A stretch of DNA of 64,000 nt from Candidatus Omnitrophota bacterium (GTDB lineage: Bacteria; Omnitrophota; Gorgyraeia; Gygaellales; Profunditerraquicolaceae), in the NCBI GenBank assembly GCA_025453395.1, contig JALOQK010000002.1, positions 149,625 through 213,624 on the forward strand, in the 5' to 3' direction. Numbering within the stretch: position 1 is the stretch's first letter; every line of letters begins with the position of its first letter. Below are positions 1,709-44,559 of this stretch, piece after piece. The position numbers and the translations under genes were made by a program. The notes below the pieces were generated by a model that did not search any database, was not told the DNA's origin, and worked only from the letters and a program-made list of their open reading frames with translations.

Positions 1709-1733
1709 CCCCTGTAGACGCTTTAGCTAAAAT
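1709..1733. repeat. REP-like element, left copy, inverted relative to the right copy (cccctgtagacgctttagctaaaa)
   Basis: Its reverse complement is found at 2619-2638 and 39521-39538. It contains the palindromic core ttagctaa. Confidence 0.6.
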
Positions 1734-1843
1734 CCTGCAGCACAGAGAATTACAAAACAAATATGGGTAAGGTAAATTTAAGTGTATCTATTTTTGTAAG
1801 ACGCGCGCAGTTGTTTCGTCTAATAGAATAAAAGGAGGATGAC

Positions 1844-2554
1844 ATGCCGTCTTGCGCCCGCAAGTATCAGTTAACCGGATCTTTGTTGTATCACATTTAC
1901 AGCCGCAGCGCCTCGGGCAGGGAAATTTTCCGCTTGCCTCAGGATTACGCGCATTTCGCGCGCCTGGCCAGCAGGTACACCGAGCTTTTTCATGCCAAGC
2001 TTTATCACTGGGCGATTATGCCCAATCATTATCATTTATTGCTTGAAATTGAACAGCCCGAGCAAATTTCGAGCATGATGGCCGGGATAAGCCGCGCCTA
2101 CACGCATTATCATCACAAAGTTTACGAGACTTTCGGATTTCTGTGGCAGGGCAGGTTCAAGATGCAGCCCGTTGAGAAAGAAAGTTATATTTTTGCCTGC
2201 GCGCGGTATATTGAGCGCAATCCGGTTCGCGCCAAGATGGTTTCTTGCGCAGAGCAATATCCGTATAGCAGCGCCGCGTTTTATTGCACGGGCCGGCCCG
2301 ACGCGGTGACTTGCGAGGACCCGATGTTCCACGAATTCGGCGCCGACGCGCGCTCGCGGCAGGCTGCCTATAAAAAATACCTGCGCGAATTTGATTATGA
2401 AGAGGAAAAGTATTATTCCCGCTTAAGCGATCCCGTAGGAGGGGCAAAGTTTATTAATCTGTTGCGCAAAGAGGGCGGCAGGCCTGTGTCATACCGGCGG
2501 GGCAGGGCGCCTGTGCGCAATCGGCGCAAGGTTATACAATTGGGAAAAACATAA
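1844..2554 (+). mobile_element. REP-associated tyrosine transposase (RAYT), IS200/IS605-like Y1 HUH transposase
   Basis: HUH motif (NHYHLLLE), a WQGRF motif and a catalytic Tyr region typical of TnpA-REP/RAYT proteins. An RBS (aaggagg) sits upstream and the gene is flanked by inverted REP-like repeats. Confidence 0.8.
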
Positions 2555-2590
2555 TTATTTTTTACTTTCATATTTATCCTACCCGGAATT

Positions 2591-2638
2591 GTTTTGTAAT
2601 TCATTGCCCCGCAGGAGGTTAGCTAAAGCGTCTACGGG
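2591..2638. repeat. REP-like element, right copy (gttttgtaatt...ttagctaaagcgtctacggg)
   Basis: An inverted copy of the 1709-1733 motif. It shares about 45 bp, including gttttgtaatt and ttagctaaagcgtctacg, with the copy at 39484-39538. Confidence 0.6.
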
Positions 2639-9773: not shown

Positions 9774-9935
9774 ATGCTTGATAAGGAATTGCTGGATATC
9801 TTGGCTTGTCCGGCCTGCAAGGGCGATGTGGAATATGACCAGAAAGACAGTAAGATTATCTGTAAATCCTGTGGGAGGAAATATCCGGTGCGCGAAGGCG
9901 TGCCTGTCATGTTGATCGATGAAGCAGAAAAATAA
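9774..9935 (+). CDS. Trm112-family small zinc-ribbon protein (UPF0434); not in the ORF track
   Basis: 53 aa with paired CxxC motifs (ACPACKG...[18 protein letters not shown]), typical of Trm112/YcaR. Confidence 0.6.
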
Positions 9936-11983: not shown

Positions 11984-12445
11984 ATGAATTTAAAAGAAAT
12001 CAAGGAAATGCTTAATTTGATGAGTGAGAATGACCTGGTTGAGCTTGAGATTGAAAAAGAAGGCATGCGCGTGCGCCTGAAGAAGATGGGCTCTGGCAGT
12101 CTTGAACATCACGCGCCGATTATGATTGAAAGGCAGAATACCGCGCAGCTTTCTTCAAGCGGCCAGCCTGTTGTTAAGCCTCAAGAGCAGGCGGATTCCT
12201 CCCGCTCTGTAGAAATTAAATCTCCCATGGTGGGGACTTTTTATCGCGCTCCTTCTCCGGAGGCGCCTCCTTATATTGAGGTGGGGCAGATAGTTGAACC
12301 GGGCCAGGTTATTTGCATTATTGAAGCCATGAAATTAATGAACGAAATAAAATCAGAGATCAAAGGCCGGGTTGCGGAAGTCTTGGCGGATAATGCCGAA
12401 CCGGTTGAATACGGGCAGTCGTTGTTTCTGGTGGAGCCGGTATAA
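11984..12445 (+). CDS. accB: Acetyl-CoA carboxylase biotin carboxyl carrier protein
   Basis: C-terminal biotinyl domain with EAMKLMNEI (biotinylated Lys). Confidence 0.9.
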   Translation: MNLKEIKEMLNLMSENDLVELEIEKEGMRVRLKKMGSGSLEHHAPIMIERQNTAQLSSSGQPVVKPQEQADSSRSVEIKSPMVGTFYRAPSPEAPPYIEVGQIVEPGQVICIIEAMKLMNEIKSEIKGRVAEVLADNAEPVEYGQSLFLVEPV

Positions 12446-12720
12446 ATTAAGGTTAAATGAGGTTGCATGAAGTTACATGAGGTTAAATGAGGTTGCAAAA
12501 AGCAAAATCAAATAAATATTTTTGAGCAGGTTAAATGAGGTTGCAAAAAGCAAAATCAAATAAATATTTTTGAGCAGGTTAAATGAGGTTACATGAAGTT
12601 AAATAAGGTTAATTGAAGTTGCAGAAAAAAGCGTTAAGATTATAAAAGTAACCTCATGTAACCTCATGTAACGTTATATAACCTCATGTAACTTTGTAAC
12701 TTTATTGAGGGAGTTTTTAT
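12446..12720. repeat. Complex repeat region with a 10-bp phased motif family
   Basis: Units ggttaaatga / ggttgcatga / agttacatga. The 16-bp motif GGTTAAATGAGGTTGC occurs 4 times. A perfect 48-bp tandem duplication lies at 12481-12576. Inverted copies (taacctcatgtaac x3) at 12649-12700 form a large imperfect palindrome. Confidence 0.8.
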
Positions 12721-19967: not shown

Positions 19968-21572
19968 ATGTTAGACGCTAAATTCTTTGGACGTGAAAGT
20001 TACCTGCTTAATTTGCATAAAAGGGTAAGTGACCTTAAGAATGGGTATCGCCATAACATGGCAATTATCGGCGATGAGCTTTTAGGCAAGACTTCGCTTA
20101 TATGCAGGCTTCTCTCCAGCTATTATGACAATAATATAATACCTGTTTATATGCAGGTAAGGCCCGAGAGCTTTTCCGTCTTCGCCCGGAGATTTATCGG
20201 AGCGCTTTTATATAATTTTCTTTCCTGCGGGAATCTTAATCTTAAGGAAGACTTGGATTTCTTGATTAATAAGTCTTCCGGGTACGCCCCCGCCACAACA
20301 GTTAAAATCCGCGAACTTCTCCTCTCTATCCAGAAAAGGAAAAAGATTAATCTTTTCGGCGAATTGATTGCTTTATGCGAGCATCTGCATAAAGAAACAG
20401 GCAAGTACTGTTTGGTTATTTTTGATGAGTTTCATAACCTTGAATCGCTGGGGGTTAATAAAATATATCCTCAGTGGTCCAAGGCGTTGATGTCCCAGAA
20501 GAGCACAATGTTTATTATCACCAGTTCCTTCAAGTTCAGGGCAAAACAGATATTGGCTAAAGACTTGTCTTTGCTTTTCGGGAATTTTGAAGTCTTGGAA
20601 ATCGAGCCGTTTGATACCCGCTTAAGCGCCTTTTATCTTAAGAAGTATTTACCGCAGGCTTCTTCGGGAGCGCTTAGCTTTTTGGTGCATTTTACCGGAG
20701 GGTATCCTTTTTATCTGGATGTAATCTCCGAGGCCCTAAACGCGCGCGCGGATTTAAACGTGGTAGACGCTTTAGAGGAACTTTTATTTGAATCCTCCGG
20801 GATGCTTAACCAGAGGTTTTCTAATTATTTAAAGAGGTTCACCGATTCTTCGGCAAGCCAGGATTTTGTTACCATAATGTACCATATCTGCAACGGACAT
20901 AACCGCGTTAAAGATATCGCGCATCTTATGCATAAGCCGGCCAATGTAATTAATGCACGCGTGAATACCTTAATGGAAATGGACGCGGTGTCTAAGAACG
21001 GCGATTTTGTAAGGATCAATGACCGTGTTTTCGGGTTTTGGCTGAAATTTGTTTATCAGGAGAAACTGAATTCCTTTACCTTTGACGCCAGAAACCAGAA
21101 AAACTTATTTCGCGCTTATGTCGAAGGGATGCTTGATGAGTTTACGCTTATTAATAACCGCCCGCTTTCCGAGAGGATGCAGGAAATACTTAAGCTTTTT
21201 GGCGATGATATTATACAGGTATCAAGCAAGCGCCTGCGCTTGGCAGCCTTTAGGGAGATCAAGCCGCTTGAATTTAACAATAGAAACTTAAAACATGGGC
21301 TTTTAGGCCGCTCAAGCGACGCCTTATGGATCATGGCTTTAAAACAAGACCAGGTCAGCGAAGAATTTGTCGCTGAATTTGCCAAGGAATGCCGCAGATA
21401 CCATCATAAGGCGCAGAAAAAAGTAATTGTAAGCCTTAACGAGGTTGATACTAATGCTCGGCTTAGGGCAATGGAGGAGAAGATCATTACCTGGGATCTA
21501 AACAGTCTTAATCAGATCTTTGATTTATTCTATAAGCCCAGGATCGTGCCTTTATATTCGGAGAAAATATGA
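19968..21572 (+). CDS. AAA+ ATP-binding protein (Arch_ATPase/PF01637-like, probable DUF234 C-terminus)
   Basis: FFGRESYLLNL...AIIGDELLGKTSL P-loop arrangement and a Walker B VIFDEFH. Confidence 0.65.
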   Translation: MLDAKFFGRESYLLNLHKRVSDLKNGYRHNMAIIGDELLGKTSLICRLLSSYYDNNIIPVYMQVRPESFSVFARRFIGALLYNFLSCGNLNLKEDLDFLINKSSGYAPATTVKIRELLLSIQKRKKINLFGELIALCEHLHKETGKYCLVIFDEFHNLESLGVNKIYPQWSKALMSQKSTMFIITSSFKFRAKQILAKDLSLLFGNFEVLEIEPFDTRLSAFYLKKYLPQASSGALSFLVHFTGGYPFYLDVISEALNARADLNVVDALEELLFESSGMLNQRFSNYLKRFTDSSASQDFVTIMYHICNGHNRVKDIAHLMHKPANVINARVNTLMEMDAVSKNGDFVRINDRVFGFWLKFVYQEKLNSFTFDARNQKNLFRAYVEGMLDEFTLINNRPLSERMQEILKLFGDDIIQVSSKRLRLAAFREIKPLEFNNRNLKHGLLGRSSDALWIMALKQDQVSEEFVAEFAKECRRYHHKAQKKVIVSLNEVDTNARLRAMEEKIITWDLNSLNQIFDLFYKPRIVPLYSEKI

Positions 21573-29944: not shown

Positions 29945-30896
29945 TTATATAGAAGCCTATAGCAGCGGCAGCTTAAAAAAGATAGCTGATAATCTGCTAA
30001 ATAGCCTTAAATCCTGCGCAATTTGCCCGCGCCGCTGCCAGGTAAACCGCCTGGAAGGGGAGAGGGGGTATTGCCGCACAGGCATCCTGCCTAAGATGTA
30101 TAGTTATTTGTCTCACCATGGCGAAGAGCCGCCTGTTTCCGGGGTAAAAGGTTCAGGGGTGATATTTTTTTCAAGTTGTAATATGTCTTGTGCCTACTGC
30201 CAGAATTATCAGTTCAGTCAGTTAGATAGAGGAAATGAAATAACTTTCCGGCAATTGGCTAATATAATGCTGGGCTTGCAGAAACTGGGTTGCCACAATA
30301 TAAATTTTGTCACGCCCACCCATGTTCTGCCCCAGATTTTACAAGGTTTACTGATTGCTATTCCCGAAGGCCTAAAGATACCGTTAGTTTACAATACCAA
30401 TGGCTATGAATTGCCGCAGATCATTAAACTATTAGATGGGATTATTGATGTGTATCTGCCTGACATGCGCTACGCGGATAAAGATGCGTCGGTTAAATAT
30501 TCTGATGCCGCAGATTATCCTTTGTATAATCAGAAAGCAGTAAAAATCATGCATGAGCAGGTAGGCATTGCTAAATTTGATAAAAAGGGATTTATAAGCC
30601 GCGGGCTTATTATCCGGCATTTGGTTTTGCCGCAAGGATTATCCGGCACAGAAAAAATCATGCGTTTTATTGCCAAAGAAATAGGACCGGATACTTATAT
30701 TAGTTTAATGAGCCAGTATTATCCGTATCACAAGGCTTTGCGGGATCCCGGTATCGCGCGAAGAATTACATTAGAAGAATATACCGCAGCGCGAGAAATG
30801 ATGCACAATGCCGGGCTTGGTAATGGCTGGACACAGGATGATAATGGCTTAGAAAGTTTAGCCGGAGCGCATGTGGAAGAAAAATATGAAGCTTAA
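29925..30896 (+). CDS. Radical SAM protein, PflX/COG1313 family (AmmeMemoRadiSam system radical SAM enzyme-like)
   Basis: N-terminal CAICPRRCQVNRLEGERGYCRTG and radical SAM cluster motif CNMSCAYCQN. Confidence 0.8.
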   Translation: MRLKKSNYIEAYSSGSLKKIADNLLNSLKSCAICPRRCQVNRLEGERGYCRTGILPKMYSYLSHHGEEPPVSGVKGSGVIFFSSCNMSCAYCQNYQFSQLDRGNEITFRQLANIMLGLQKLGCHNINFVTPTHVLPQILQGLLIAIPEGLKIPLVYNTNGYELPQIIKLLDGIIDVYLPDMRYADKDASVKYSDAADYPLYNQKAVKIMHEQVGIAKFDKKGFISRGLIIRHLVLPQGLSGTEKIMRFIAKEIGPDTYISLMSQYYPYHKALRDPGIARRITLEEYTAAREMMHNAGLGNGWTQDDNGLESLAGAHVEEKYEA

Positions 30897-31368
30897 CAGA
30901 TTAAGCGCCTTAAGGCTTCTTAAGTTTGTGTATTTAAAATCCCGGAGAATACGCGATAATCCGCACAGGGTGGCCCTGGGATTTGCTTTAGGTATTTTTA
31001 TCGGGGTTATGCCAGCAGTGGGGCCTTTGGCAGCTTGGTTTATTGCCTCGTTTCTAAGAATCAACCGCATAAGCGCTATTTTGGGCAGTCTTATTTCCAA
31101 TACTTGGGTAACATTTATTACTTTTATTTTATCCTTAAAGATAGGATCTTGGATTTTCGGCCTTGATTGGCATAGCCTATACGGAGAAGTAAAAGTTTTG
31201 CTCAAAGATTTTCACTTTAGATATTTATTGGATTCCATTATAATTAGTAAAATTATGCCTTTGATTTTAGGCTATATTGTTATTTCCTTAATTTTCGCTT
31301 TTATAGGATATGTAATTATATTTATTATTTTTAGCCTGCATCGCAAGGGCTCTAAGTTGACAAAATAA
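30871..31368 (+). CDS. DUF2062-family membrane protein
   Basis: PHRVALGFALGIFIGVMPAVG motif followed by TM helices. Confidence 0.6.
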   Translation: MWKKNMKLNRLSALRLLKFVYLKSRRIRDNPHRVALGFALGIFIGVMPAVGPLAAWFIASFLRINRISAILGSLISNTWVTFITFILSLKIGSWIFGLDWHSLYGEVKVLLKDFHFRYLLDSIIISKIMPLILGYIVISLIFAFIGYVIIFIIFSLHRKGSKLTK

Positions 31369-31412
31369 CCCGCTTGTGTTATAGTGCATTTTAAGAAAGA
31401 GGAGGGGATACA

Positions 31413-31874
31413 ATGAAAATAAAGCCCGTTTTAATTTTTGCGGCAATTTTAACTTTTCCTTTAGCAGTTATGGCTTATGAATTCCAGAAAGAATACCCCG
31501 AAGTGCAAACTAAGGTTGAATACTCCAAAAAAGCTATTGATCCGGATGCCGGAAATGTGTACAAGACCCCGTTTAATAAAATGTACCGCGGGCTTATTAA
31601 TATAAGCACTTCTTGGGTAGAAATTCCCGCGGAATGCTTTAAAGTCGGCAGCGAAAAAAACCCGGTTTTGGGCGTGACTTTAGGGGCTATGCAGGGCTGC
31701 GTTTTGGCAGTTTGCAGGATTGTCACAGGCGCCTTTGACGCGGTAACTTTTGTTATCCCGCCTTATGATAAACCGATTATGAAGCCTGAATTTGCCTTAC
31801 AAAGGGCTGACCAGAAATACTGCGAGTATTTTGACCTTTATGATGGCCAACCCAAGCCAGAAAGCCAAAAGTAG
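31413..31874 (+). CDS. Secreted hypothetical protein (possibly TIGR04073-like, exosortase-associated)
   Basis: Signal peptide. Motif RGLINISTSWVEIP. SD aggagg upstream. Confidence 0.45.
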   Translation: MKIKPVLIFAAILTFPLAVMAYEFQKEYPEVQTKVEYSKKAIDPDAGNVYKTPFNKMYRGLINISTSWVEIPAECFKVGSEKNPVLGVTLGAMQGCVLAVCRIVTGAFDAVTFVIPPYDKPIMKPEFALQRADQKYCEYFDLYDGQPKPESQK

Positions 31875-32036
31875 GTCCTAATGGCATAGACCTGTGTTAG
31901 TCTGGCAATCCCTGTTAAGTTTAACTAATCCAAGTAACTCCCAGTAAGTCTGAAATCATAGAAAATCCCCTAAAAACATATCTTTTGTAACTGCTTTAAG
32001 TATAAGGTCTTAGAGGCAGTATTACGTGTATTATGT

Positions 32037-32064
32037 AGTTAACATAAGATATATTATAGGAAGT
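32037..32064 (-). other. dif chromosome dimer resolution site (XerC/XerD) at the replication terminus
   Basis: The - strand reads ACTTCCTATAA-TATATC-TTATGTTAACT, matching 25 of 28 positions of B. subtilis dif (ACTTCCTAGAATATATATTATGTAAACT). It lies in the convergent strand-switch region. Confidence 0.7.
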
Positions 32065-32148
32065 ACAGGTATAGGGCAAATAGGCCTGGCCGACGCTGTT
32101 TGAGTGGGTTTTAATCCTTGGTTTTTTGGGGTTTTGGGCGGGTTTTCC

Positions 32149-32454
32149 TTACTTTGAGCTTAATACGTAGACTCCGCCTTGGATCTTGATTGTCTTTCCG
32201 TTTACTAAACAATCTGCTATTCTTTTGCGCGCTTTCTTAAGTATCCGGCTAAAGGTCTGCTGGGATATATGCATAGACCTGGCAGCTTGTTTCTGGCCTT
32301 CTCCTATAAAGTCTGATAATCTAATGGCCTCAAACTCATCCATGCTTAAATCTGCTTCATCCGGCCTTCCGGGCCTGCCCCTGGGGCTGAATTGGTTGAT
32401 CTTGGGGTCTAATCTTACTATTCGGTATTTTTTAGGGCGTCCGCGGGGTTCCAT
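32149..32454 (-). CDS. DUF134 (UPF0251) family DNA-binding protein
   Basis: MEPRGRPKKYRIV...LSMDEFEAIRLSDFIGEGQKQAARSMHISQQTFSRILKKARKRIADCL matches the DUF134 profile. Confidence 0.7.
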   Translation of the reverse strand: MEPRGRPKKYRIVRLDPKINQFSPRGRPGRPDEADLSMDEFEAIRLSDFIGEGQKQAARSMHISQQTFSRILKKARKRIADCLVNGKTIKIQGGVYVLSSK

Positions 32455-32530
32455 AATAATATTAAATAAGTTTTAAGGAAATTTCTTAACTAAAGTGTTA
32501 CCTATTTTTACCTAAGTTTAACCTGCCGGT

Positions 32531-32554
32531 TATAATGAGTACTTACTCATTATT
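32531..32554. promoter_or_regulatory. Perfect palindrome ATAATGAGTA-ct-TACTCATTAT upstream of the DUF134 gene; candidate operator
   Basis: 10-bp inverted arms with a 2-bp centre, about 80 bp upstream of the DUF134 start. Confidence 0.35.
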
Positions 32555-32619
32555 GATGCCCAAACGCGCGACTGACTCTGGTATTTTATTGCTGTAAATT
32601 ATTGGTAATAAATGGTTTA

Positions 32620-32805
32620 TTAGATTTCCGCGTCTTTGACCAATTTGCGGTAATAATCAATGCATTCCTGGCAAGCCCCTTTATCTACTTTCCACTTGGG
32701 GTGATCCTTCTTAATAAGTTCTAAAATATATTCTTCAGCTTTGATATGGGCAATGCTTACGTAATCGTCTATTTCACGGTTGCAGATCTGGCATTTGTAT
32801 TTCAT
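32620..32805 (-). CDS. Small zinc-ribbon protein (CxxC...CxxC)
   Basis: 61 aa. CQICN ... CQEC. Confidence 0.4.
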   Translation of the reverse strand: MKYKCQICNREIDDYVSIAHIKAEEYILELIKKDHPKWKVDKGACQECIDYYRKLVKDAEI

Positions 32806-32806
32806 C

Positions 32807-32989
32807 TTATTTGATGCAGTCCTCTCTCCAGCAGCAGCTCATCTGAGCGCATGAATGGTTGGCTGTGCCGAAACAGGATGAAAAACCCTCTTTGGCCTGT
32901 ATTTGTTTGATCAAATCTTTTTTAGAATGTTTCCAGGTGTCTTTTAATCCCAGTTGCTTTGCCTTTTTTTCTACTTCGGTCAATCTCAT
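32807..32989 (-). CDS. Small protein with Rho_N/SAP-like helix-extension-helix N-terminus and Cys-rich C-terminus
   Basis: LTEVEKKAKQLGLKD..KKDLIKQIQ, then CFGTANHSCAQMSCCWREDC. SD aggggggaga. Confidence 0.4.
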   Translation of the reverse strand: MRLTEVEKKAKQLGLKDTWKHSKKDLIKQIQAKEGFSSCFGTANHSCAQMSCCWREDCIK

Positions 32990-33012
32990 TTCTCCCCCCT
33001 TTTTTTGTTTTT

Positions 33013-33046
33013 GCTGATAGCTGAAGGCTGATAGCTGATAGCTGAC
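33013..33046. repeat. 10-bp tandem array (CAGCTATCAG on the - strand, x3 plus a fourth copy with one mismatch)
   Basis: gctgatagctgaaggctgatagctgatagctga lies immediately upstream (on the - strand) of the SD of the small Cys-rich gene. Confidence 0.6.
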
Positions 33047-33052
33047 GATTGA

Positions 33053-33772
33053 TTACTCCGGGCTATAAAACGCTTTTTTCAATTTATCCTTGTGCCTTTG
33101 CGCTTGATAGATGTATTCGTAGGTTTCGTCTTGGCTGTAGAGCTTGAATTTCTGGTTTAACGAGCAGGAAGCCAGTTGAATATCTTTTCCTACCTTTCCG
33201 TCCTGTGAAGCAGTTTCAAGTATGGCGTAAGTAGCTAGTTCTAAGGCATGTTTTAAGGTAATTTCCTTGGTGTATAAGGTATTTAATAGATAGGTTGCAA
33301 AAGGCGTAATTCCTATGGACATAAATCCAAGAAGCGTCCAGCGGTGCGGCGCGAAATTGCGTTCGCTGTAAAGAGTGAATATTTCCGGGCAGTTAATAAT
33401 ATTCGCGCCGTTTATATCCTTGCGGTAGCCGCTTATGATAAAATGCAGCGTTGGCCGTTCATCAAAAGTCATCTTGCCGAACCACTCGTTGTATTTATGT
33501 ATCGCGCTTTCCCGGCAGACAGAAAGCATTTCATCTATGCTTAAATTGCGGTAGCCGGGGTTTTTGTGCAGTTGATAATATATAAGGTCAATAATGCTTG
33601 CCCCTAATCCGCCGTCACCGGCAAGGGTGAGGCCGCAGTAATCGCCCAGCTCAAAGACTTTTTTTACCGTGTCGTTTACGGTTGTGGGGCCGCGCGGGTC
33701 GCCGCTTGTAACCCGGCTGTCAGCGGCTAAGGCGATCCCGTCATCGGCGATAATGCTTATGGCAAGGGTCAT
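33053..33772 (-). CDS. Proteasome beta-subunit-like Ntn hydrolase (20S beta/HslV/Anbu superfamily)
   Basis: N-terminus M-TLAISIIADDGIALAADSRVTSG gives Thr immediately after Met (candidate Thr1 nucleophile) and Asp17 in the proteasome-beta pattern. About 239 aa. Confidence 0.6.
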   Translation of the reverse strand: MTLAISIIADDGIALAADSRVTSGDPRGPTTVNDTVKKVFELGDYCGLTLAGDGGLGASIIDLIYYQLHKNPGYRNLSIDEMLSVCRESAIHKYNEWFGKMTFDERPTLHFIISGYRKDINGANIINCPEIFTLYSERNFAPHRWTLLGFMSIGITPFATYLLNTLYTKEITLKHALELATYAILETASQDGKVGKDIQLASCSLNQKFKLYSQDETYEYIYQAQRHKDKLKKAFYSPE

Positions 33773-33773
33773 A

Positions 33774-34157
33774 TTATTTATTTTTATACACTAGATCGTG
33801 CTGCCTTACCCGCGAGATGACCTCTAGGCCTATTTCCTGATTCTTTTTAGCGGTTGATATAGGCGCATGGTCCATCTGCATGGAATTTATGTTTTGGGTA
33901 AAGTCGGTTGTGTGCCCTTTAAAGCGCACTGAATCTCCGGTTGATAACGGCAGTTTTACCTTTATTACGGCTGCGCTTACTTTGGGGAAATAATGCGTGA
34001 CAATCCCCACGATAGTGCCTTCTTGCTTTTTCTTTACGATTTTCTTTTTGGCGGCAGACTTTTTCTTGATTGCTTTTTTTGCCGGCTTTTTTTGGGCTAT
34101 TTTCTTTGCCGGTTTTTTCTTGAGGCGGGTTGTTTTCTTTTTTTTCTTAAGAGGCAT
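33774..34157 (-). CDS. Lysine-rich (histone H1-like) protein with C-terminal EF-Tu domain-2-like beta-barrel
   Basis: The N-terminal 45 aa are K-rich. The C-terminal motif GTIVGIVTHYFPKVSAAVIKV...GDSVRFKG...EIGLEV resembles translation-factor domain II. Confidence 0.5.
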   Translation of the reverse strand: MPLKKKKKTTRLKKKPAKKIAQKKPAKKAIKKKSAAKKKIVKKKQEGTIVGIVTHYFPKVSAAVIKVKLPLSTGDSVRFKGHTTDFTQNINSMQMDHAPISTAKKNQEIGLEVISRVRQHDLVYKNK

Positions 34158-34170
34158 AAGAAACCTCCTT

Positions 34171-34485
34171 TTAAAGGATTATTTTATCTGCGATTTCGGC
34201 AACTACCGGTATACGGGTGTATTTTCCAAGCAAAGCCTGCGTACAGCCCCAAAAGACGAACAGCAAATACAAGAATACAACTATCCTTGATACTATCCAG
34301 CCTAAAAGCGGGATAATATTAATGATCAACCCGGAAACAAGGAGAATGAGAAGCACCAGGCCTTGTTTGCCGTGGAACACAGCGAATTTATTTTCTTTTT
34401 TCAGGATCAAGGGCAGGATGCACAAGAACGGTAAATACCCTGCCATTGCCAGAATTTTAGCTTCCTGAATTTCGTCTTGAGGCAT
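34171..34485 (-). CDS. DUF4870-family small membrane protein
   Basis: KILAMAGYLPFLCILPLIL...FAVFHGKQGLVLLIL pattern and three TM helices. Confidence 0.5.
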   Translation of the reverse strand: MPQDEIQEAKILAMAGYLPFLCILPLILKKENKFAVFHGKQGLVLLILLVSGLIINIIPLLGWIVSRIVVFLYLLFVFWGCTQALLGKYTRIPVVAEIADKIIL

Positions 34486-35582
34486 TATTTAATCTGAAGC
34501 AATGAATTAGTTTGGCCAAAAGGATTTTCTGCTTTTTCCGGATTAGCCGGGTCGTCTGTCCAGGTGCCGTCAATGACAAAGCGGTAATTATATCTTCCCG
34601 GAGAAAGGTTTAATTTTTTCTGCCAGACACCGTTTTCGCGCTGCATAATGCTTGTGTCGTTTAATTCCCAATTGTTGAAATCCCCGACCACATAGACCTC
34701 TTTTGCCTGCGGAGCGCTTAATTCAAATACAAATTCAGCCATTTTGGGAAGCGTTTCTTTAATGGTTTTTTGCATGCGAGTTGCGATTTTTTCCATCTTG
34801 GTTTCTTTTGCGGAATCTTTAGTAGTTGTCGCGCCTGATAAAAGTTCGCGCGATAAGCTGTAATAGTCTTTTGTGCCGCGGCAGTATTTGTCAAAGGCAA
34901 CCACGTGCATACCCTGGGATTGGGCTTCCTTAAGTTTGACGTTGACATGGATAATGGTGTCAAAAAGCCCGCCCTTAAAGTCGGTTTTTATCTTTTCAAG
35001 TATCCTAAAGGAATGCCTAAGCCTTGAATCAAAATTGGTGACCAGTATTTTATGGGTTATCTTATGCCCTAAACGGTCGCGGATAAGCTCTACAATGTCC
35101 ATTAACTGCCCTAAGCCTACTAATGAAAAGCGGCTTGCCTCCACCGGTATAATCACCTCATGGCTGGCGCGAAGCGCGTTAATGGTCAAAATACCTAAAT
35201 TCGGAGGGCAGTCTATTAACATATAATCATAGTTGGATTTAAAATTATTCAGGACTTCCCAAAGGCGCGATTCGCGGCTTATTTCGCCGGCTAATTCCTG
35301 TTCCAGTGTGCTTAGGATAATTCCCGACGGAGCAATGTCAAAATTGGCGGAAACGCTTCTTATGATATCGTCAATGCGTACTTTTTTATTAGTTAATTTG
35401 GAGAGGACATTATAAATATTATATTGGGTATCTATGTTTAACCCAAAAGTCGCGTGCGCCTGCGGATCAAGATCTATTAAAAGGACTTTTTTGCCGTTTA
35501 CTGCCAGGTTTGCCGCCAAGTTGATCGCCGTAGTTGTCTTTCCGCATCCTCCTTTTTGATTCGCCACCGCAATTATGCGCAT
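34485..35582 (-). CDS. ParA/MinD-family P-loop ATPase fused to a C-terminal CBM48 (AMPK-beta-type glycogen-binding) domain
   Basis: Deviant Walker A (IAVANQKGGCGKTTTAINLA) and LIDLDPQ. The C-terminal 80 aa, VYVVGDFNNWELNDTSIMQRENGVWQKKLNLSPGRYNYRFVIDGTWTDDPANP, match the CBM48/AMPK1_CBM consensus. Confidence 0.8.
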   Translation of the reverse strand: MRIIAVANQKGGCGKTTTAINLAANLAVNGKKVLLIDLDPQAHATFGLNIDTQYNIYNVLSKLTNKKVRIDDIIRSVSANFDIAPSGIILSTLEQELAGEISRESRLWEVLNNFKSNYDYMLIDCPPNLGILTINALRASHEVIIPVEASRFSLVGLGQLMDIVELIRDRLGHKITHKILVTNFDSRLRHSFRILEKIKTDFKGGLFDTIIHVNVKLKEAQSQGMHVVAFDKYCRGTKDYYSLSRELLSGATTTKDSAKETKMEKIATRMQKTIKETLPKMAEFVFELSAPQAKEVYVVGDFNNWELNDTSIMQRENGVWQKKLNLSPGRYNYRFVIDGTWTDDPANPEKAENPFGQTNSLLQIK

Positions 35583-35598
35583 AAAGCTCTCCCCCTTT

Positions 35599-36156
35599 TT
35601 ATTTGATAAACCTTACGTTATCCACTAAGACTACGCCTGTTTTAGATTTTGTGTTCCATGCTTCCACGGTAAAATTCAATTTGCTCATTTCTGTCCAGTC
35701 GCTTATATTTTTGAATTCCGAAAGGTTGACGTTGTATTCCTGCCATTTGCGCGGGATGTCCTTTAAATAAACCAAAGAATTCTCCTTGAAAGAATTAGAC
35801 ATCTCTACTTTCATGTTCACGGTGTCGGTGTATTCGTTTTTCTTCAAGGCAAAAGCGATACTTTTATATTTTGTAACATTAAGCCGGTTAAGATTTATAG
35901 TATAAGTTTCTTTTTCCGCCGGGTCAAAATGGAAATTTATTTTGGCGCTTCCCTCTTGAAGGACCAAGGCAATTTGAGTGTTGTTTTTGGCCTTGCGGCT
36001 TCCAAAAGTGAAAAACACCCCCACAATCAATATTATCGCTATGCTAAAGAAAAATATATTCTTTAAGAACGAATAATTCTTTTTCTTCTTGTTTTTCTTC
36101 AGCGACGCGTCAAGGTAGATTTTGGCGAGGTGTTCGTAAATATCCTTTTTTTCCAT
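35599..36156 (-). CDS. Membrane-anchored hypothetical protein (single TM, C-terminal beta-rich domain)
   Basis: K-rich cytoplasmic N-terminus, one TM helix, and a C-terminal domain ending VVLVDNVRFIK (carbohydrate-binding-module-like). Lies in an operon between the GH57 and ParA genes. Confidence 0.45.
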   Translation of the reverse strand: MEKKDIYEHLAKIYLDASLKKNKKKKNYSFLKNIFFFSIAIILIVGVFFTFGSRKAKNNTQIALVLQEGSAKINFHFDPAEKETYTINLNRLNVTKYKSIAFALKKNEYTDTVNMKVEMSNSFKENSLVYLKDIPRKWQEYNVNLSEFKNISDWTEMSKLNFTVEAWNTKSKTGVVLVDNVRFIK

Positions 36157-36189
36157 TTCAAGGATTTATAACACAAAAGTCACTGCCTG

Positions 36190-37743
36190 TCAACAGGTAA
36201 TAGGTGTTTTTAGGTAATCGGGGGGTTGTTTCCCGATGAGTTTATAGAAGTTAGATAAATGCCTTCTAAAAAGCTCATCAAAGGCCTCCGGGCCCTCTCC
36301 GTACCACCAAAACCAGTCGCTTCCTTCGGCAATGTACATTTGCTTCCAGGCCAAATCTGGAATTTTCTCGCCTCTATCTTGCATGTCCTGTAATTCTTTT
36401 CTGGCTATTGCCAGGTATTCCCAGGCGCGCGCCTTGGCAGCGTTTCCGATCCATTTGCCAAATTCCGAATAGATCCAGCTTCCTGCGGCAAGCCGTTTGA
36501 TCTGTTTTTTAGCCGGGAATTTATTCAGGTATTCTTTTACGGTTGTGGTTTGTATATTATCGCTTTCAGAAAGCTTTGTGTAAAGAAGCTCCAAGAAATC
36601 ATGGCCGTCATTTTTATAATATTCCCAGGCGTTTTCTCCGTCCATGGCGATAGTTACCAGGATATCTGTATTTTTAAAAGCGGCGGCGGTATTTTCCAGG
36701 TGCTTCATAAAATCCTCTACCGCGTCTTTGGTGTTCCAGTGGTGGTAAGAAAAGCCGATCATGTCCGAGAGGTTTCGGTCGCGAAATACTACTGCTAACT
36801 CCCCTGCCTCTCTTTTAATTAGATGCGGCTGATAAAGCAATTTAGTGTCTCTTTTTTTGGCGCGCAACGATCTAAAGAGCATAGACTCGTCGGTAACGAT
36901 CCATTTTATGCCCGCGTTCATGATAAAGGGCAAGATATGTTCGCTGACTGCTTCTTCCGAAGGCCACATGCCAACCGGAGAAGCGCCAAATTTATTTTTA
37001 TATAAAGCTACTGCGCTGTCTATTTGGGTTTGGGCGTCTTGGGGATAGGCGAATGCCGGCTTAGGAAGAATAGTTTTGATGTTAGCTTCCTTGGCAACAT
37101 TGGTATTGTATAATAATGGCAGTATGGGGTGATAATAGGGATTGGCAGTAATTTCAATTTGGCCGGTTGCTTGAAACTTGCGGCAGACCGGGATGATCTC
37201 TTCTAAGATATGGGTTTGAGTGTCCAGACAGATGTGCTTATCTTCTTCTGTAAAATCGCGGGCCTTGGCCACAAGCCTGCTTAATTGCGGCAGGTTTTGC
37301 CGGTAATAGGGGTCAATCCAGGCCAGATTAAACCAGACCTGCAGGTCTAGGGTCTCTTGATCGTTGAATTGATGCCCTTGCTTGCGCTTGTAGAAAAGCT
37401 CGTAATAGCGCGGGAAACAGAAGATCACCTTCTCCGGGTTAATCATAAAGAAGTTGTCGCGGATAAAATCGCGTTCTTCCCTTGTTAGTTCAGGCACAGC
37501 CTTATAAGAAAGTTCTAAGAATTTATCTTTAATGGTTCTATTGGTATAATCATCAATTTGCTCTAATAAAGACGGGACAAAATTAAAGGTTTGGTGGATG
37601 CGCGGGAATTTCTCCAGCATCAGGATCATGTCCGCGTAGTCTTTTACCCCATGCAAGCGCACCCAGGGCATGTTGGTTTCCTGTGTCAACAGGTCCTTGT
37701 AATAGGGCTGGTGCATGTGGAAGATAAAAGCCAGATATAACAT
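36190..37743 (-). CDS. Glycoside hydrolase family 57 enzyme (probable 1,4-alpha-glucan branching enzyme / alpha-glucan processing)
   Basis: N-terminal FHMHQPYY (GH57 region I) and a downstream catalytic region. About 517 aa, as for GH57 branching enzymes. Confidence 0.8.
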   Translation of the reverse strand: MLYLAFIFHMHQPYYKDLLTQETNMPWVRLHGVKDYADMILMLEKFPRIHQTFNFVPSLLEQIDDYTNRTIKDKFLELSYKAVPELTREERDFIRDNFFMINPEKVIFCFPRYYELFYKRKQGHQFNDQETLDLQVWFNLAWIDPYYRQNLPQLSRLVAKARDFTEEDKHICLDTQTHILEEIIPVCRKFQATGQIEITANPYYHPILPLLYNTNVAKEANIKTILPKPAFAYPQDAQTQIDSAVALYKNKFGASPVGMWPSEEAVSEHILPFIMNAGIKWIVTDESMLFRSLRAKKRDTKLLYQPHLIKREAGELAVVFRDRNLSDMIGFSYHHWNTKDAVEDFMKHLENTAAAFKNTDILVTIAMDGENAWEYYKNDGHDFLELLYTKLSESDNIQTTTVKEYLNKFPAKKQIKRLAAGSWIYSEFGKWIGNAAKARAWEYLAIARKELQDMQDRGEKIPDLAWKQMYIAEGSDWFWWYGEGPEAFDELFRRHLSNFYKLIGKQPPDYLKTPITC

Positions 37744-37764
37744 TAGGGGGATCCTTAAGGTTAA

Positions 37765-37804
37765 TAAAAAACCCTCGAGGAGTGGCTTCCCCGAGGGTTT
37801 TTTA
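37765..37804. terminator. Bidirectional rho-independent terminator
   Basis: Stem ACCCTCG/CGAGGGT with an A-run upstream and a T-run downstream. It lies between the porin stop and the GH57 start. Confidence 0.6.
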
Positions 37805-37819
37805 TTACATTTTCCGTAA

Positions 37820-39130: not shown

Positions 39131-39338
39131 TTTTTTAAATCCTCCTTATGAGAATATTCGAGTATGCAAAACTTAATGTTGTGTTCTATTATACTAGGTT
39201 TTTTTAAAAAATATGTACCTAGAGATTTCCATCTATATGTATATCACTGGTATTTGTATGGCTTCAGGCTGCTTTTTTCTTCACCCCCTTTCCCGTCTGG
39301 GATTAAAACCATTACCAATGGTATAGCCTATTTTATCC

Positions 39339-39368
39339 ATTTTTATCACATAACCTCTTTGTTGTCAA
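39339..39368 (-). promoter_or_regulatory. Sigma-70-type promoter candidate for the porin gene, with a long 5' UTR
   Basis: On the - strand: TTGACA, 17-bp spacer, TAAAAA(T). A roughly 200-nt leader contains a 7-bp hairpin (cctggcc...ggccagg). Confidence 0.35.
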
Positions 39369-39483
39369 GAGTTATTTACCTAGAAAAAGGTACACCTGGC
39401 CTTCCGATAGGCCAGGGTGTTAGACTCTAGGGGCACACCGGCGCAATTCAGATAAGCGCGAGGTGCTACACTACCCATATTTG

Positions 39484-39538
39484 TTTTGTAATTATTTATG
39501 CTGGATTGGGTTAGCTAAAGCGTCTACGATTTTTAGAT
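39484..39538. repeat. REP-like element, third copy
   Basis: gttttgtaatt...ggttagctaaagcgtctacg shares about 45 bp with 2591-2638. Confidence 0.55.
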
Positions 39539-40112
39539 TCAATCCAATTTGATTTAGTTCTTCTGGGGCCAAGATGTCATCCGGATGATGGCAGTCCATG
39601 TTAAGCGCAAACTTTGCGCCCAGGGCCAGGCCGCGTTCTGCGACATGGGGGTTGGCTTGATTATGACCTCTTCTGGAAGTGATCTCAAGAAGTACCCCTC
39701 TTTTTATGGCCAAAAGAATATCCTCATCGGTGATTAGGCCGGGATGTGCTAAGATATCTACCCCAGCTTCAATTGCCGCGCGGTTAGTGCCCTTCACTAC
39801 TGGCTCATTGGGAGTTTCTCCGTGTCCAATAATTACCTTTATGCCGGCTTTGCGCGCGTATTTTACCAAAGGTTTAAATTGGCTTGGTGGGATATGGGTT
39901 AATTCTACGCCCGGAAGTACGGTTATCCCTCCACTATGAGGCCATTTATTGCTAAATTTAAGGATTGAGCCAACCACAAAATCAATATTGCTTGTGTCAA
40001 CATGGTCGGTAATGGCCAAGAGTTTATAGCCTTTGGCTTGATGCCGGATGGCTAATTCCGACGGCAAGAGGCATCCGTCGCTTAAAAGTGAGTGCGAATG
40101 TAGATTAACCAT
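39492..40112 (-). CDS. PHP-domain phosphoesterase (histidinol-phosphatase-like)
   Basis: MVNLHSHSLLSDG start and ITDH motif. The ORF-track N-terminal extension overlaps tRNA-Arg and was rejected. Confidence 0.7.
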   Translation of the reverse strand: MVNLHSHSLLSDGCLLPSELAIRHQAKGYKLLAITDHVDTSNIDFVVGSILKFSNKWPHSGGITVLPGVELTHIPPSQFKPLVKYARKAGIKVIIGHGETPNEPVVKGTNRAAIEAGVDILAHPGLITDEDILLAIKRGVLLEITSRRGHNQANPHVAERGLALGAKFALNMDCHHPDDILAPEELNQIGLNLKIVDALANPIQHK

Positions 40113-44444: not shown

Positions 44445-44470
44445 TGTCTTTAAAACCCTGCCTTTCTGGT

Positions 44471-44559
44471 TAAGGTTAAATAAGGTTAAATAATGTTACA
44501 TGATGTTAAATGAGGTTGCTTAAAATCTTTTTTTGCAACCTCATGTAACGTCATTTAAC
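44471..44559. repeat. Second locus of the 10-bp phased GTTAAATGAGGTTGC motif family, with hairpin
   Basis: taaggttaaa x2, aatgttacat, gatgttaaat, then gaggttgc-N15-gcaacctc. The glyQS stop codon lies in the right arm. Confidence 0.75.

What the first reader, a model, noticed from the sequence alone, without database searches (positions are those of the whole stretch)
1709..2638. Single-copy RAYT (REP-associated Y1 transposase) flanked by inverted REP-like repeats, with a third REP copy 37 kb away
The 236-aa protein has the HUH (NHYHLLLE) and WQGRF motifs of TnpA-REP/RAYT rather than an ordinary IS200 transposase. It is bracketed by inverted copies of ...tagacgctttagctaa... at 1709-1733 and 2619-2638. 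A third copy with about 45 bp of shared sequence, including the gttttgtaatt extension, lies at 39484-39538 next to a tRNA-Arg/PHP gene. This fits the domesticated RAYT/REP model in which the transposase disseminates short palindromic elements through the chromosome. The element also sits between a histidine kinase and a PilZ operon, and within 30 kb of the terminus.
Basis: partly seen in the sequence, partly recalled or inferred. Interest (0 to 1): 0.55.

Follow-up and report, generated by a model that had tools for sequence, protein, structure and literature searches.

The report
Tyrosine transposase gene with inverted-repeat ends
This is a single-copy gene for a RAYT-like tyrosine transposase in an uncultured Omnitrophota bacterium, bounded by about 62-76-nt inverted repeats that also occur without the gene elsewhere in the genome; it is a new member of the already described "TIRtron" kind, not a classical palindromic-REP system.

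Summary
ORF 1844-2554 encodes a 236-aa HUH/Y1 enzyme. It is bracketed by inverted copies of GTAGACGCTTTAGCTAA, and a third copy lies at 39467-39527. The arms are longer than reported (62-76 nt, 78-82% alike). A fourth and fifth copy form a 245-bp gene-less inverted doublet 5.5 kb upstream of the window.

The protein belongs to the RAYT class (Y---NP motif). Its best sequence and fold match is E. coli TnpAREP, and the IS200 model gives no hit. It appears single-copy.

The repeats are not REPs. Single arms form no hairpin. The GTAG head varies among relatives (GT/CT/GC/AC/CC + AGACG). The protein scores below the NCBI RAYT cut-off.

Length, motifs (NHYH, WQ, YIERNP) and full-length homology to proteins flanked by GGGGWSAS inverted repeats place it nearest the TIRYT/"TIRtron" group (Quentin subclass 2.1, Bertels Group 1).

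At least 12 related Omnitrophota genes, each in a different gene context, carry lineage-specific versions of the same termini. Dissemination in this genome is modest: 5 copies in 82 kb.

Verdict: a real feature, a new member of a known kind, of moderate-to-low interest. Cleavage site and mobility are inferred, not shown.

The parts
1714..1786 (+). Left terminal inverted repeat (arm). The full unit shared by all copies is about 62 nt (1714-1775).
   Evidence: Inverted repeat I1, 76 nt, 78% complementary to 2563-2638. nhmmer E 2.7e-19.
1714..1730 (+). Head (box A), GTAGACGCTTTAGCTAA. It is invariant in all 5 copies of this genome. The family-wide core is nnAGACG[CT]T.
   Evidence: AGACG is invariant in 9 aligned left ends.
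1748..1772 (+). Box B, AATTACAAAACAAATATGGGTAAGG. This second conserved block of the arm is separated from the head by about 17 variable nt.
   Evidence: Alignment of the 5 copies. The family consensus TTACAAAAC.AAT appears.
1799..1822 (+). 5' leader with AGACG (1799-1803) and CGTCTA (1817-1822). CGTCT, the reverse complement of the head core, is invariant about 20-30 nt before the start codon in all 9 aligned relatives. It is a possible second binding site or translational-control hairpin.
   Evidence: Sequence. Invariant columns C109 G110 T111 C112 T113.
1844..2554 (+). Gene for the 236-aa class-2 Y1 HUH transposase (RAYT/TIRYT type). It has HuH at H62/H64, WQ at 101-102 and the catalytic-Tyr motif Y122-IERNP. 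A Shine-Dalgarno AAGGAGG lies at 1832-1838.
   Evidence: (invariant residues). AF2 model pLDDT 84.7. Best fold match 4ER8.
2563..2635 (-). Right terminal inverted repeat, with its head at 2619-2635 on the minus strand.
   Evidence: nhmmer E 1.5e-19.
39467..39527 (-). Solitary gene-less copy of the 62-nt unit. Its head supplies the last 11 codons and the stop of the PHP hydrolase ORF (39492-40112, minus strand).
   Evidence: nhmmer E 1.1e-18..
20763..20775 (+). Head-only 13-nt match (GTAGACGCTTTAG) inside a 534-aa ORF, with no arm. It is probably coincidental and is listed for completeness.

Best explanation
**What it is.** The 922-bp segment 1714-2635 is a 'TIRtron'. It is a gene for a class-2 Y1 HUH tyrosine transposase of the RAYT/TIRYT type, closest to Quentin subclass 2.1 / Bertels Group 1. 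It is bounded by about 62-76-nt imperfect terminal inverted repeats. Each repeat has an invariant 17-nt outer head, a variable spacer and a second conserved box.

**Shown**
- The enzyme keeps all catalytic residues.
- The same architecture, with lineage-specific variants of the head, surrounds at least 12 related genes in other Omnitrophota, in unrelated gene contexts.
- In this genome the repeat unit also exists without the gene: once alone, and once as a 245-bp inverted doublet that folds into a long hairpin as single-stranded DNA.

**Inferred**
- The enzyme binds the heads and nicks single-stranded DNA at or next to the nnAG^ACG junction through Tyr122.
- It thereby mobilises in trans the short gene-less units, singles and doublets that are MITE/REPIN-like.
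- The gene-bearing unit itself rarely or never copies.
- The conserved CGTCTA in the 5' leader may let the enzyme repress its own gene.

Whether the gene is selfish or domesticated is unresolved.
For: **Protein class**
- Pfam Y1_Tnp is above cut-off.
- The only NCBIfam hit is REP_Tyr_transpos; the IS200 model gives no hit at E<=10.
- The family profile matches 4ER8 TnpAREP at 7.9e-5 and ISDra2 at 0.6.
- The AF2 model (pLDDT 84.7) matches 4ER8 at E 1.2e-8, against about 1e-5 for IS608/ISDra2.
- H62, H64, W101, Y122, N126 and P127 are invariant in 30 homologues, and the C-terminal tail is conserved.

**Subclass**
- It has 236 aa with NHYH / WQ / YIERNP. Subclass 2.1 in Table 1 of PMC6006769 has median 238 aa, NH[YF]H, W[EQ], YIELNP and no REP hairpins.
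- It shares 33% identity over 211 aa (E 1e-36) with L107b, which is flanked by AAAAGGGGTCAGAGT, the GGGGWSAS TIRYT motif.
- It shares 28.6% identity over 87% of its length with a P. aeruginosa plasmid transposase flanked by a 38-nt TIR containing GGGGACAG.

**Termini**
- There are three exact 17-mers in the window and arms of 61-76 nt.
- Five full copies lie in 82 kb, all with a perfect head while the rest of the arm is about 75-84% alike.
- Inverted lineage-specific heads flank homologues in L025, L094, L096, L099, L105, L106, L107a, L108, L112 and L115. L109 shows the right head only, because the contig starts about 200 nt upstream of the gene.
- The same exact 17-mer flanks L025, whose protein is only 55% identical.

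**Gene-less copies**
- The solo copy is at 39467-39527.
- The doublet is at L001 2419-2663. As ssDNA it folds at -48.5 kcal/mol, z = -6.0.

**Single copy**
- tblastn finds no second gene in 82 kb.
- The 90% cluster has one member, and the next relative is 58% identical.
- The locus assembled inside a 346-kb contig.
Against: - No activity, cleavage site or transposition event has been observed.
- Only 82 kb of one genome could be inspected, so genome-wide copy number is unknown. Three gene-less copies could be relics.
- The TIRs lack the GGGGWSAS motif of most described TIRYTs.
- No HTH Pfam domain is detected in the C-terminal tail.
- Formal placement in Quentin's or Bertels's groups was not done, because no reference sequence sets were available.
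- A Y1 enzyme acting on one DNA strand would see different sequences at two non-palindromic inverted ends. The mechanism therefore cannot be simply copied from IS608 or E. coli TnpAREP.
- In the relatives inspected (12-20 kb each), only L108 showed an extra copy of the terminus.
Confidence: 0.6

Rival explanations
1. It is an ordinary, selfish insertion sequence of an uncatalogued type (Y1 transposase plus terminal inverted repeats). It moves as a whole. The solo copy and the doublet are MITE-like deletion derivatives or decayed ends. Nothing is domesticated.
For: - Related genes sit in unrelated contexts in different MAGs.
- One MAG carries two diverged AGACGC-type copies plus a third Y1 paralogue with GGGGWSAS-type ends.
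- Several contigs end within 0.2-1.5 kb of the gene, as expected at repeats.
- Plasmid-borne relatives have 2-3 places per plasmid.
- Short tandem 'stutter' repeats at the termini suggest recent end processing.
- Bertels 2017 describes Group 1 as among the RAYT groups most resembling ISs in distribution, with 6.3% near-identical duplicates and 1.2% on plasmids.
Against: - There is one gene copy in 82 kb and one sequence in its 90% cluster.
- No homologue is above 58% identity in 5.8 billion clusters. A housekeeping PHP protein of the same genome peaks at 68%. This shows no sign of recent horizontal spread.
- Paralogues within one MAG are only 61% identical.
- The gene-less doublet's interior is unrelated to the gene, so it is not a simple internal deletion.
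Confidence: 0.27
2. It is a canonical RAYT/REP system: a domesticated TnpAREP that recognises GTAG-tagged palindromic hairpins and spreads them at high copy number.
For: - The heads in this genome start with GTAG.
- The gene is flanked by inverted copies.
- E. coli TnpAREP is the best sequence and structure match.
- A 31.5%-identical Skermanella plasmid homologue is followed by true GTAG hairpin REPs.
Against: - Single arms form no hairpin.
- The head dinucleotide varies among relatives: GT, CT, GC, AC, CC.
- The protein scores 64.4 bits against an 80-bit cut-off.
- The positions equivalent to E. coli E100, H101 and R104 are not conserved.
- The unit is 62 nt, not 20-40 nt.
- Density is about 1 copy per 16 kb in the sampled region.
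Confidence: 0.08
3. It is an inactive relic: the gene and repeats are leftovers of an old insertion with no present function.
For: - Copy number is low.
- Arms have diverged to 78-82% identity.
- No activity data exist.
Against: - The ORF is intact and has a strong Shine-Dalgarno sequence.
- All catalytic residues and the tail are conserved across 30 homologues at 50-59% identity.
- The 17-nt heads are perfect in all five copies while the neighbouring arm positions diverge.
- The same 17-mer is preserved in a lineage whose protein is 55% identical.
Confidence: 0.05

Closest known systems
TIRYT / TIRtron (Di Nocera et al. 2013, PMC3733652); Quentin et al. 2018 TnpAY1 subclass 2.1; Bertels et al. 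2017 RAYT Group 1
   Same: - The protein is RAYT-like, about 236-238 aa, with NH[YF]H, W[EQ] and Y---NP motifs and a conserved C-terminal tail.
- The gene is flanked by long terminal inverted repeats rather than hairpin REPs.
- The TIRs form a moderately abundant family present as singles and dimers.
- Gene copy number is low, and paralogues are diverged.
- It has full-length homology (29-33% identity) to proteins flanked by GGGGWSAS TIRs.
   Different: - The TIR sequence is unrelated to GGGGWSAS. It starts with GTAG/nnAG + ACG[CT]T and is bipartite.
- No HTH Pfam domain is detected in the tail.
- The Y motif is YIERNP rather than YIELNP.
- The clade is confined to Omnitrophota-type MAGs, which were not sampled in those studies.
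E. coli TnpAREP (RayT/YafM, PDB 4ER8) with REP/BIME; REPtron
   Same: - It is the best sequence-profile and structural match.
- It shares the HUH + Y---NP catalytic core and the WQ motif.
- The gene lies between inverted copies of its cognate repeat.
- It is single-copy.
- The head tetranucleotide in this genome is GTAG.
   Different: - The repeats are not palindromic hairpins.
- The protein is 70 aa longer.
- It scores below the NCBIfam equivalog cut-off.
- The GTAG-contact residues E100/H101/R104 are not conserved.
- GTAG is not conserved in the family.
REPIN (Bertels & Rainey 2011)
   Same: The 245-bp doublet upstream of the window is two inverted units. It folds into a long hairpin as ssDNA (z = -6) and carries no gene.
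   Different: - Its arms are 62 nt with a spacer of about 120 nt, which is larger than typical REPINs.
- Only one doublet was seen.
- No population of REPINs has been demonstrated.
IS200/IS605 TnpA (IS608, ISDra2)
   Same: It shares the HUH/Y1 fold and, presumably, single-strand nicking chemistry.
   Different: - The motif is Y---NP, not Y---Q.
- There is no hit to the IS200 model.
- The ends are inverted repeats rather than dissimilar subterminal hairpins.
- There is no tnpB.
- It is single-copy.

Membership tests
HUH / Y1 transposase superfamily (Pfam PF01797) | Match to Y1_Tnp above the gathering score; HUH motif; catalytic Tyr on the following helix; the HUH fold | tested here: met
   - 43.8 bits against a 23-bit cut-off.
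- H62-Y-H64 and Y122 are invariant in 30 homologues.
- The AF2 model matches 4ER8, 2A6M and 2XMA.
IS200/IS605 TnpA (Quentin subclass 1.1) | Y---Q motif; about 150 aa core-only protein; hit to the transpos_IS200 model | tested here: not met
   - The motif is YIERNP, i.e. Y---NP.
- The protein is 236 aa.
- NF033573 gives no hit at E<=10.
IS200/IS605 TnpA (Quentin subclass 1.1) | Dissimilar, non-inverted ends with subterminal hairpins; multiple near-identical copies | tested here: not met
   - The ends are inverted repeats.
- No hairpins form.
- There is one gene copy in 82 kb.
RAYT / TnpAREP (class 2 TnpAY1) | Y---NP tyrosine motif and an HuH with a hydrophobic middle residue | tested here: met
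   NHYH and Y122-IER-NP. The criteria come from PMC6006769.
RAYT / TnpAREP (NCBIfam NF047646 equivalog) | Score at or above the curated cut-off of 80 bits | tested here: not met
   64.4 bits. Relatives score 64.9-80.5 bits.
REPtron (RAYT + REP) | Flanking repeats are palindromic stem-loops: a basal stem of 7-20 bp and a loop of 2-5 nt, within 0-2 nt of the tag | tested here: not met
   ssDNA folds of all three arms on both strands gave -2 to -7 kcal/mol, z from -0.7 to +1.5. The definition comes from PMC6006769.
REPtron (RAYT + REP) | 5' GT[AG]G tetranucleotide on the repeat | tested here: inconclusive
   GTAG is present on all 5 copies here. In relatives the first two bases vary (CT, GC, AC, CC); only AGACG is invariant.
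REPtron (RAYT + REP) | Conservation of the E. coli GTAG-contact residues W94, Q95, E100, H101, R104 | tested here: not met
   W101 and Q102 are conserved. The equivalents of E100, H101 and R104 are M107, Q108 and E111 (alignments; family columns).
REPtron (RAYT + REP) | High genomic copy number of the repeat (tens to hundreds) | not testable with these tools
   Only 82 kb of the source contig could be read, and it holds 5 copies. The source metagenome is not in the scanned collections.
TIRYT / TIRtron (subclass 2.1, Group 1) | Gene flanked by long terminal inverted repeats that are not stem-loops | tested here: met
   76-nt arms at 78% complementarity. The same holds in 10 related loci with both ends readable.
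TIRYT / TIRtron (subclass 2.1, Group 1) | Protein about 238 aa with NH[YF]H, W[EQ], YIELNP/Y[IV]HLNP | tested here: met
   236 aa with NHYH, WQ and YIERNP, which differs by one residue.
TIRYT / TIRtron (subclass 2.1, Group 1) | GGGGWSAS motif in the TIR (majority of described members) | tested here: not met
   The heads are GTAGACGC.... GGGGTCAG and GGGGACAG are present in the paralogue L107b and in plasmid locus L110.
TIRYT / TIRtron (subclass 2.1, Group 1) | C-terminal HTH-like extension (Bac_DnaA_C, HTH_23 or HTH_28) | tested here: not met
   Residues 131-236 give no Pfam hit at E<=10. The tail is nevertheless conserved, is modelled as helices plus a beta-hairpin, and aligns with the tail of L107b.
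TIRYT / TIRtron (subclass 2.1, Group 1) | Clustering with reference subclass 2.1 / Group 1 sequences (MCL or phylogeny) | not tested
   Reference sets were not available. The only proxy is pairwise homology to GGGGWSAS-flanked proteins.
REPIN | Two repeat units in inverted orientation forming one long hairpin, without a gene | tested here: met
   L001 2419-2663 folds at -48.5 kcal/mol, z -6.0, with 0 of 200 shuffles folding as well.

The most novel reading that the evidence does not exclude
This is an Omnitrophota-wide clade: 2,777 database proteins match at E<=1e-5, and among the best 120 every organism name given is Omnitrophica/Omnitrophota or unclassified. Its Y1 enzymes have cognate ends that carry a GTAG-like tag and an invariant AGACG core but no hairpin. 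That would make it an evolutionary and mechanistic intermediate between TIRtrons and REPtrons. The short tandem 'stutter' repeats outside the termini of several members would then be footprints that map the cleavage/joining point to nnAG^ACG. The mechanism of TIR-associated Y1 enzymes has never been tested and would become directly approachable.
Probability: 0.25. Interest if true: 0.5.

Novelty: new member of a known kind. Interest (0 to 1): 0.3.

Why it matters
RAYT-like enzymes flanked by inverted repeats rather than hairpins (TIRYTs, the largest RAYT group) have been described only by comparative genomics. In the searchable literature nobody has shown what they cut or whether they move their repeats.

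This locus and its relatives offer several things:
- a compact, well-delimited example from a phylum with no cultured models;
- an unusually well-defined candidate recognition site, a 17-nt head that is perfectly conserved across copies and across lineages whose proteins are only 55% identical;
- gene-less singles and a doublet in the same genome;
- in relatives, terminal stutters that suggest where the DNA is cut.

For annotation, it shows that such genes labelled 'transposase' or 'IS200-like' in Omnitrophota MAGs are not IS200 elements.

Tried and rejected
- **Collection scans for the 17-mer.** The genome-contig scan gave 36 stretches and the metagenome-contig scan gave 54. By my own estimate for a 17-mer in about 0.6 Tb, that is roughly chance level. 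One search showed that almost all hits are unrelated coding sequence, several clearly from the same conserved genes. Only L025 (a pair around a homologue) is clearly related. L021 (Omnitrophota) and L033 (Auribacterota) are intergenic, so they may be related. The source metagenome is absent from both collections, so no genome-wide count was possible.\n- **Hairpin in the core or arms.** Rejected by folding.\n- **Known RNA families.** None was found in the element or the doublet. The only hits were far below gathering score.\n- **Long-range pairing of the head with the leader CGTCTA.** Only the 5-6 nt core is complementary. The adjacent position is complementary in 3 of 9 lineages, which is chance level (read). 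The two sites are more likely separate recognition sites.\n- **Empty-site test at the third copy.** No close relative exists; the best PHP homologue is 68% identical. Only the protein-level result was obtained: the conserved C-terminal tail is replaced by element-encoded residues. A possible remnant of the tail downstream (PGLSEGQVY...) coincides with a GC-rich terminator hairpin and was judged coincidental.\n- **Extension of the third copy to about 115 nt.** The idea was that it ends at GAGTCTAAC, mirroring the left end up to CGTCTAA. The intervening sequence is not similar, so this is left as a tentative observation.\n- **Doublet as an internal-deletion derivative of the gene-bearing element.** Rejected, because its interior has no similarity to the element.\n- **Synteny as evidence of vertical descent.** Three relatives lie upstream of a T2SSE operon. 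They are no closer to each other (59-63%) than to non-syntenic members, so this is inconclusive.\n- **Promoter scan.** It found nothing above shuffle expectation.
Full report
**1. What is in the sequence**

ORF 1844-2554 (+) encodes 236 aa. It is preceded by a strong Shine-Dalgarno sequence, AAGGAGG, at 1832-1838. The protein contains MPNHYHLLLE, LWQGRFK and ARYIERNPV.

The 17-mer GTAGACGCTTTAGCTAA occurs exactly at 1714-1730 (+), 2619-2635 (-) and 39511-39527 (-). With up to three mismatches, 0.12 matches are expected by chance.

- Arms 1711-1786 and 2563-2638 are 76 nt and 78% complementary.
- The third copy spans 39467-39527 and is 82% like the left arm.
- Each unit has an invariant 17-nt head, about 17 variable nt, and then a second conserved block, AATTACAAAACAAATATGGGTAG.
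- Similarity stops exactly at the G of GTAG; the bases outside are unrelated in every copy.

**2. More of the same genome**

The protein is encoded on a 346-kb JGI contig (sample 3300037461) and on a Logan contig from run SRR12684589; the sources name the organism Candidatus Omnitrophica. Joining the window with the flanks that could be fetched gave 82 kb.

A profile of the unit finds five full copies, each at E < 1e-16, and all five have a perfect head. The two new copies lie 5.5-5.7 kb upstream of the window, at L001 2419 (+) and 2663 (-). They form a 245-bp inverted doublet with no gene between them.
- As single-stranded DNA the doublet folds at -48.5 kcal/mol, z = -6.0.
- Its interior is unrelated to the transposase element.
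- No second copy of the gene exists in the 82 kb.

A 13-nt head-only match at 20763 lies in frame inside a 534-aa ORF and is probably coincidental.

**3. Single arms are not hairpins**

All three arms, folded on both strands as ssDNA, gave -2 to -7 kcal/mol. Z-scores ranged from -0.7 to +1.5. The TTAGCTAA palindrome does not produce a stem. No Rfam family matches the element or the doublet.

**4. The protein**

- Pfam Y1_Tnp is above cut-off.
- In NCBIfam the only hit is REP_Tyr_transpos, at 64.4 bits against a cut-off of 80. The IS200 model gives nothing even at E<=10.
- A profile of 30 homologues hits E. coli TnpAREP (4ER8) at 7.9e-5 and ISDra2 TnpA at about 0.6.
- An AlphaFold model (pLDDT 84.7, pTM 0.81) matches 4ER8 best, at E 1.2e-8 over 161 of its 165 residues. 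IS608, ISDra2 and IS200 TnpA follow at about 1e-5.
- H62, H64, W101, Y122, N126 and P127, along with many tail residues, are invariant in the 30 homologues.

**5. Which RAYT-like group**

Table 1 of Quentin et al. 2018 (PMC6006769) describes subclass 2.1, which equals Bertels Group 1. Its features are median length 238 aa, NH[YF]H, W[EQ], YIELNP, a C-terminal tail and no REP hairpins. The paper equates this subclass with the TIRYTs of Di Nocera et al. 2013 (PMC3733652). TIRYTs are RAYT-like genes flanked by long terminal inverted repeats, mostly with a GGGGWSAS motif. Some of those TIRs form moderately abundant families of singles and dimers.

The window protein has 236 aa with NHYH, WQ and YIERNP, which fits. 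It is also homologous over its full length to proteins with such ends.
- It shares 33% identity (E 1e-36) with a paralogue in MAG GCA_041643015.1 that is flanked by AAAAGGGGTCAGAGT.
- It shares 28.6% identity with a P. aeruginosa plasmid transposase flanked by a 38-nt TIR containing GGGGACAG.

Three points do not fit.
- Its own TIRs lack GGGGWSAS.
- No HTH domain is detected in the tail.
- Of the five E. coli residues that contact GTAG (listed in PMC6006769), only W and Q are conserved.

**6. The family**

The search returned 2,777 proteins at E<=1e-5. Among the best 120, most carry no source name, and every organism name that is given is Omnitrophica/Omnitrophota or unclassified 'bacterium'. 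Typical length is 228 aa. The best non-self hit is 58% identical, and the window protein's own cluster has one member.

I read the flanks of 12 relatives. In every case where both ends were on the contig, the gene is bracketed by inverted copies of a lineage-specific variant of the head.
- GTAGACGCTTTAGCTAA in L025
- GTAGACGTTGTA in L094
- GCAGACGCTTTCCCCAA in L096
- GTAGACGCTTTA[CC/AT]TAA in L099
- [AC/GC]AGACGTTTTA in L105
- CTAGACGCTGTA / GTAGACGCTATA in L106
- CTAGACGCTTTAG / GTAGACGCTTTAG in L107a
- CCAGACGTTTTAG in L108
- GTAGACGCT[C/T]TA in L112
- GTAGACGCTTTA in L115

AGACG is invariant, while the two bases before it vary. Left and right heads match each other within an element better than they match heads of other elements. 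The exact 17-mer of the window also flanks L025, whose protein is only 55% identical.

In the 228-aa relatives the right arm overlaps the 3' end of the gene. In the window it does not.

All nine aligned left ends also share GTTAGAT and an invariant CGTCT about 20-30 nt before the start codon. CGTCT is the reverse complement of the head core. Pairing does not extend beyond the core; the adjacent position is complementary in 3 of 9 lineages. I therefore read it as a second recognition site, possibly for autoregulation, rather than a stem. This is inference.

**7. Context and mobility**

Gene neighbours differ in almost every lineage.
- Window: histidine kinase and PilZ
- L025: dnaE and comEA
- L094: TPR and gatC
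- L096: methyltransferase and RND
- L099: recA region
- L106, L107 and L108: upstream of T2SSE
- L109: upstream of rpsU

The T2SSE-adjacent members are not closer to each other than to the rest. One MAG has two AGACGC-type paralogues that are 61% identical, plus a GGGGWSAS-type one.

A housekeeping PHP protein of the source genome has its best relative at 68% identity, against 58% for this protein. There is thus no sign of recent horizontal acquisition, but the data cannot decide between vertical descent and old transposition.

Heads often abut or overlap the stop codon of a co-oriented upstream gene.
- Window left: 6 nt after the stop
- Doublet: TAG of GTAG is the stop
- L025, L096, L094 and L105: 0-4 nt from the stop
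- Third copy: it supplies the last 11 codons (VDALANPIQHK) and the stop of the PHP gene, replacing a conserved tail that is about 22 aa long in homologues

**8. Mechanism**

*Shown:* an intact, conserved Y1 enzyme; cognate inverted ends that co-vary with it; gene-less units in singles and a hairpin-forming doublet; and perfect conservation of the head against diverging arms.

*Inferred:* the enzyme recognises the head and nicks ssDNA near it through Tyr122, mobilising gene-less units in trans.

A clue to the site comes from relatives. Immediately outside several termini there are short tandem repeats made of a few flank bases plus the first 2-4 bases of the head.
- L112: AACCGTAG, four copies, one of them imperfect
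- L099: GAATCGTAG x2
- L108: CATCCCAG many times
- L106: AAATCCT x4
- L109: GCAACCAA x5

The last repeat is always followed by (AG)ACG. This places a recombination or slippage point at nnAG^ACG. The window shows only a weak version, TAGAC at 1705 and again at 1715.

Non-palindromic inverted ends look different on one strand. The enzyme must therefore either act on opposite strands at the two ends, or act on the intra-strand stem that the two arms form. The doublet fold shows such a stem is feasible, but this point is open.

**9. Verdict**

The RAYT-class call is right, and the REP call is not. The element is best filed as a TIRtron-type unit with a previously undescribed TIR sequence in Omnitrophota. 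No paper in the searchable library links Omnitrophota with these enzymes, and TIRYTs appear only in the two comparative papers.

It is a new member of a known kind.

Noticed in passing
window 12437-12695 and 44470-44580: Arrays of a 10-nt periodic motif (AGGTTAAATG / AGGTTGCATG / AAGTTACATG) occur at two loci 32 kb apart. They appear in both direct and inverted orientation, and a 48-nt unit is duplicated exactly at 12480 and 12528. They look like iterated protein-binding sites.
   Followed up: no
L001 2419-2663 (= 5.5-5.7 kb upstream of window position 1): A 245-bp gene-less inverted doublet of the same 62-nt unit lies between a biotin-lipoyl gene and an HTH_17 gene. The TAG of its GTAG head is the stop codon of the upstream gene. 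It folds into a long hairpin as ssDNA (z -6.0).
   Followed up: yes
window 39492-40112 (-): The PHP-family hydrolase ORF ends inside the third repeat copy. Its last 11 residues (VDALANPIQHK) are repeat-encoded. The conserved tail of about 22 aa seen in homologues (AGLSxxxIxxIYxxxxxFL) is missing.
   Followed up: partly
L112 ~780-816; L099 ~9875-9893; L108 9800-9880 and 11939-11990; L106 ~265-295; L109 downstream of the gene: Short tandem 'stutter' repeats lie directly outside the element termini. Each is made of a few flank bases plus the first 2-4 bases of the head. L108 also has a partial tandem duplication of the first ~30 nt of the end. They are possible footprints of end processing at nnAG^ACG.
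   Followed up: partly
L107 5123-5836 and 6784-7473; L109 209-895 (MAG GCA_041643015.1): One MAG carries three diverged Y1 paralogues. Two have AGACGC-type ends and are 61% identical. One is a 229-aa protein (NHLH/WE/YIELNP) flanked by AAAAGGGGTCAGAGT, the classical GGGGWSAS TIRYT motif. Two of the three lie only 950 bp apart.
   Followed up: partly
L111 1380-1529 (Skermanella sp. TT6 plasmid pTT6-2): A 31.5%-identical plasmid homologue is followed by three true GTAG-tagged hairpin REPs (CGTAGGTTGCGCCnnnGGCGCAAC). The wider clade therefore includes both REP-flanked and TIR-flanked members.
   Followed up: no
L106, L107, L108 (upstream of T2SSE/T2SSF/pseudopilin operon); L112 (between pilin-like genes): Related genes recur next to type II secretion / pseudopilin operons in several MAGs. 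Their proteins are no closer to each other than to non-syntenic members. This could reflect a hotspot or old synteny and is unresolved.
   Followed up: partly
window ~30000-40000: AT skew flips sign near 30-32 kb. GC skew falls from about +0.1 to about 0 or slightly negative near 36-40 kb, and the ORF strands sampled change from + (1-7 kb) to - (38-41 kb and 60-64 kb). This is consistent with a replication terminus or another strand-switch point.
   Followed up: partly
L021 1368-1384 (Omnitrophota JPNA_metabat.7) and L033 2456-2472 (Auribacterota): Solitary exact copies of the 17-nt head sit in intergenic DNA of other lineages, without the rest of the arm. They may be remnants, or chance hits in a 0.6-Tb scan.
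   Followed up: partly
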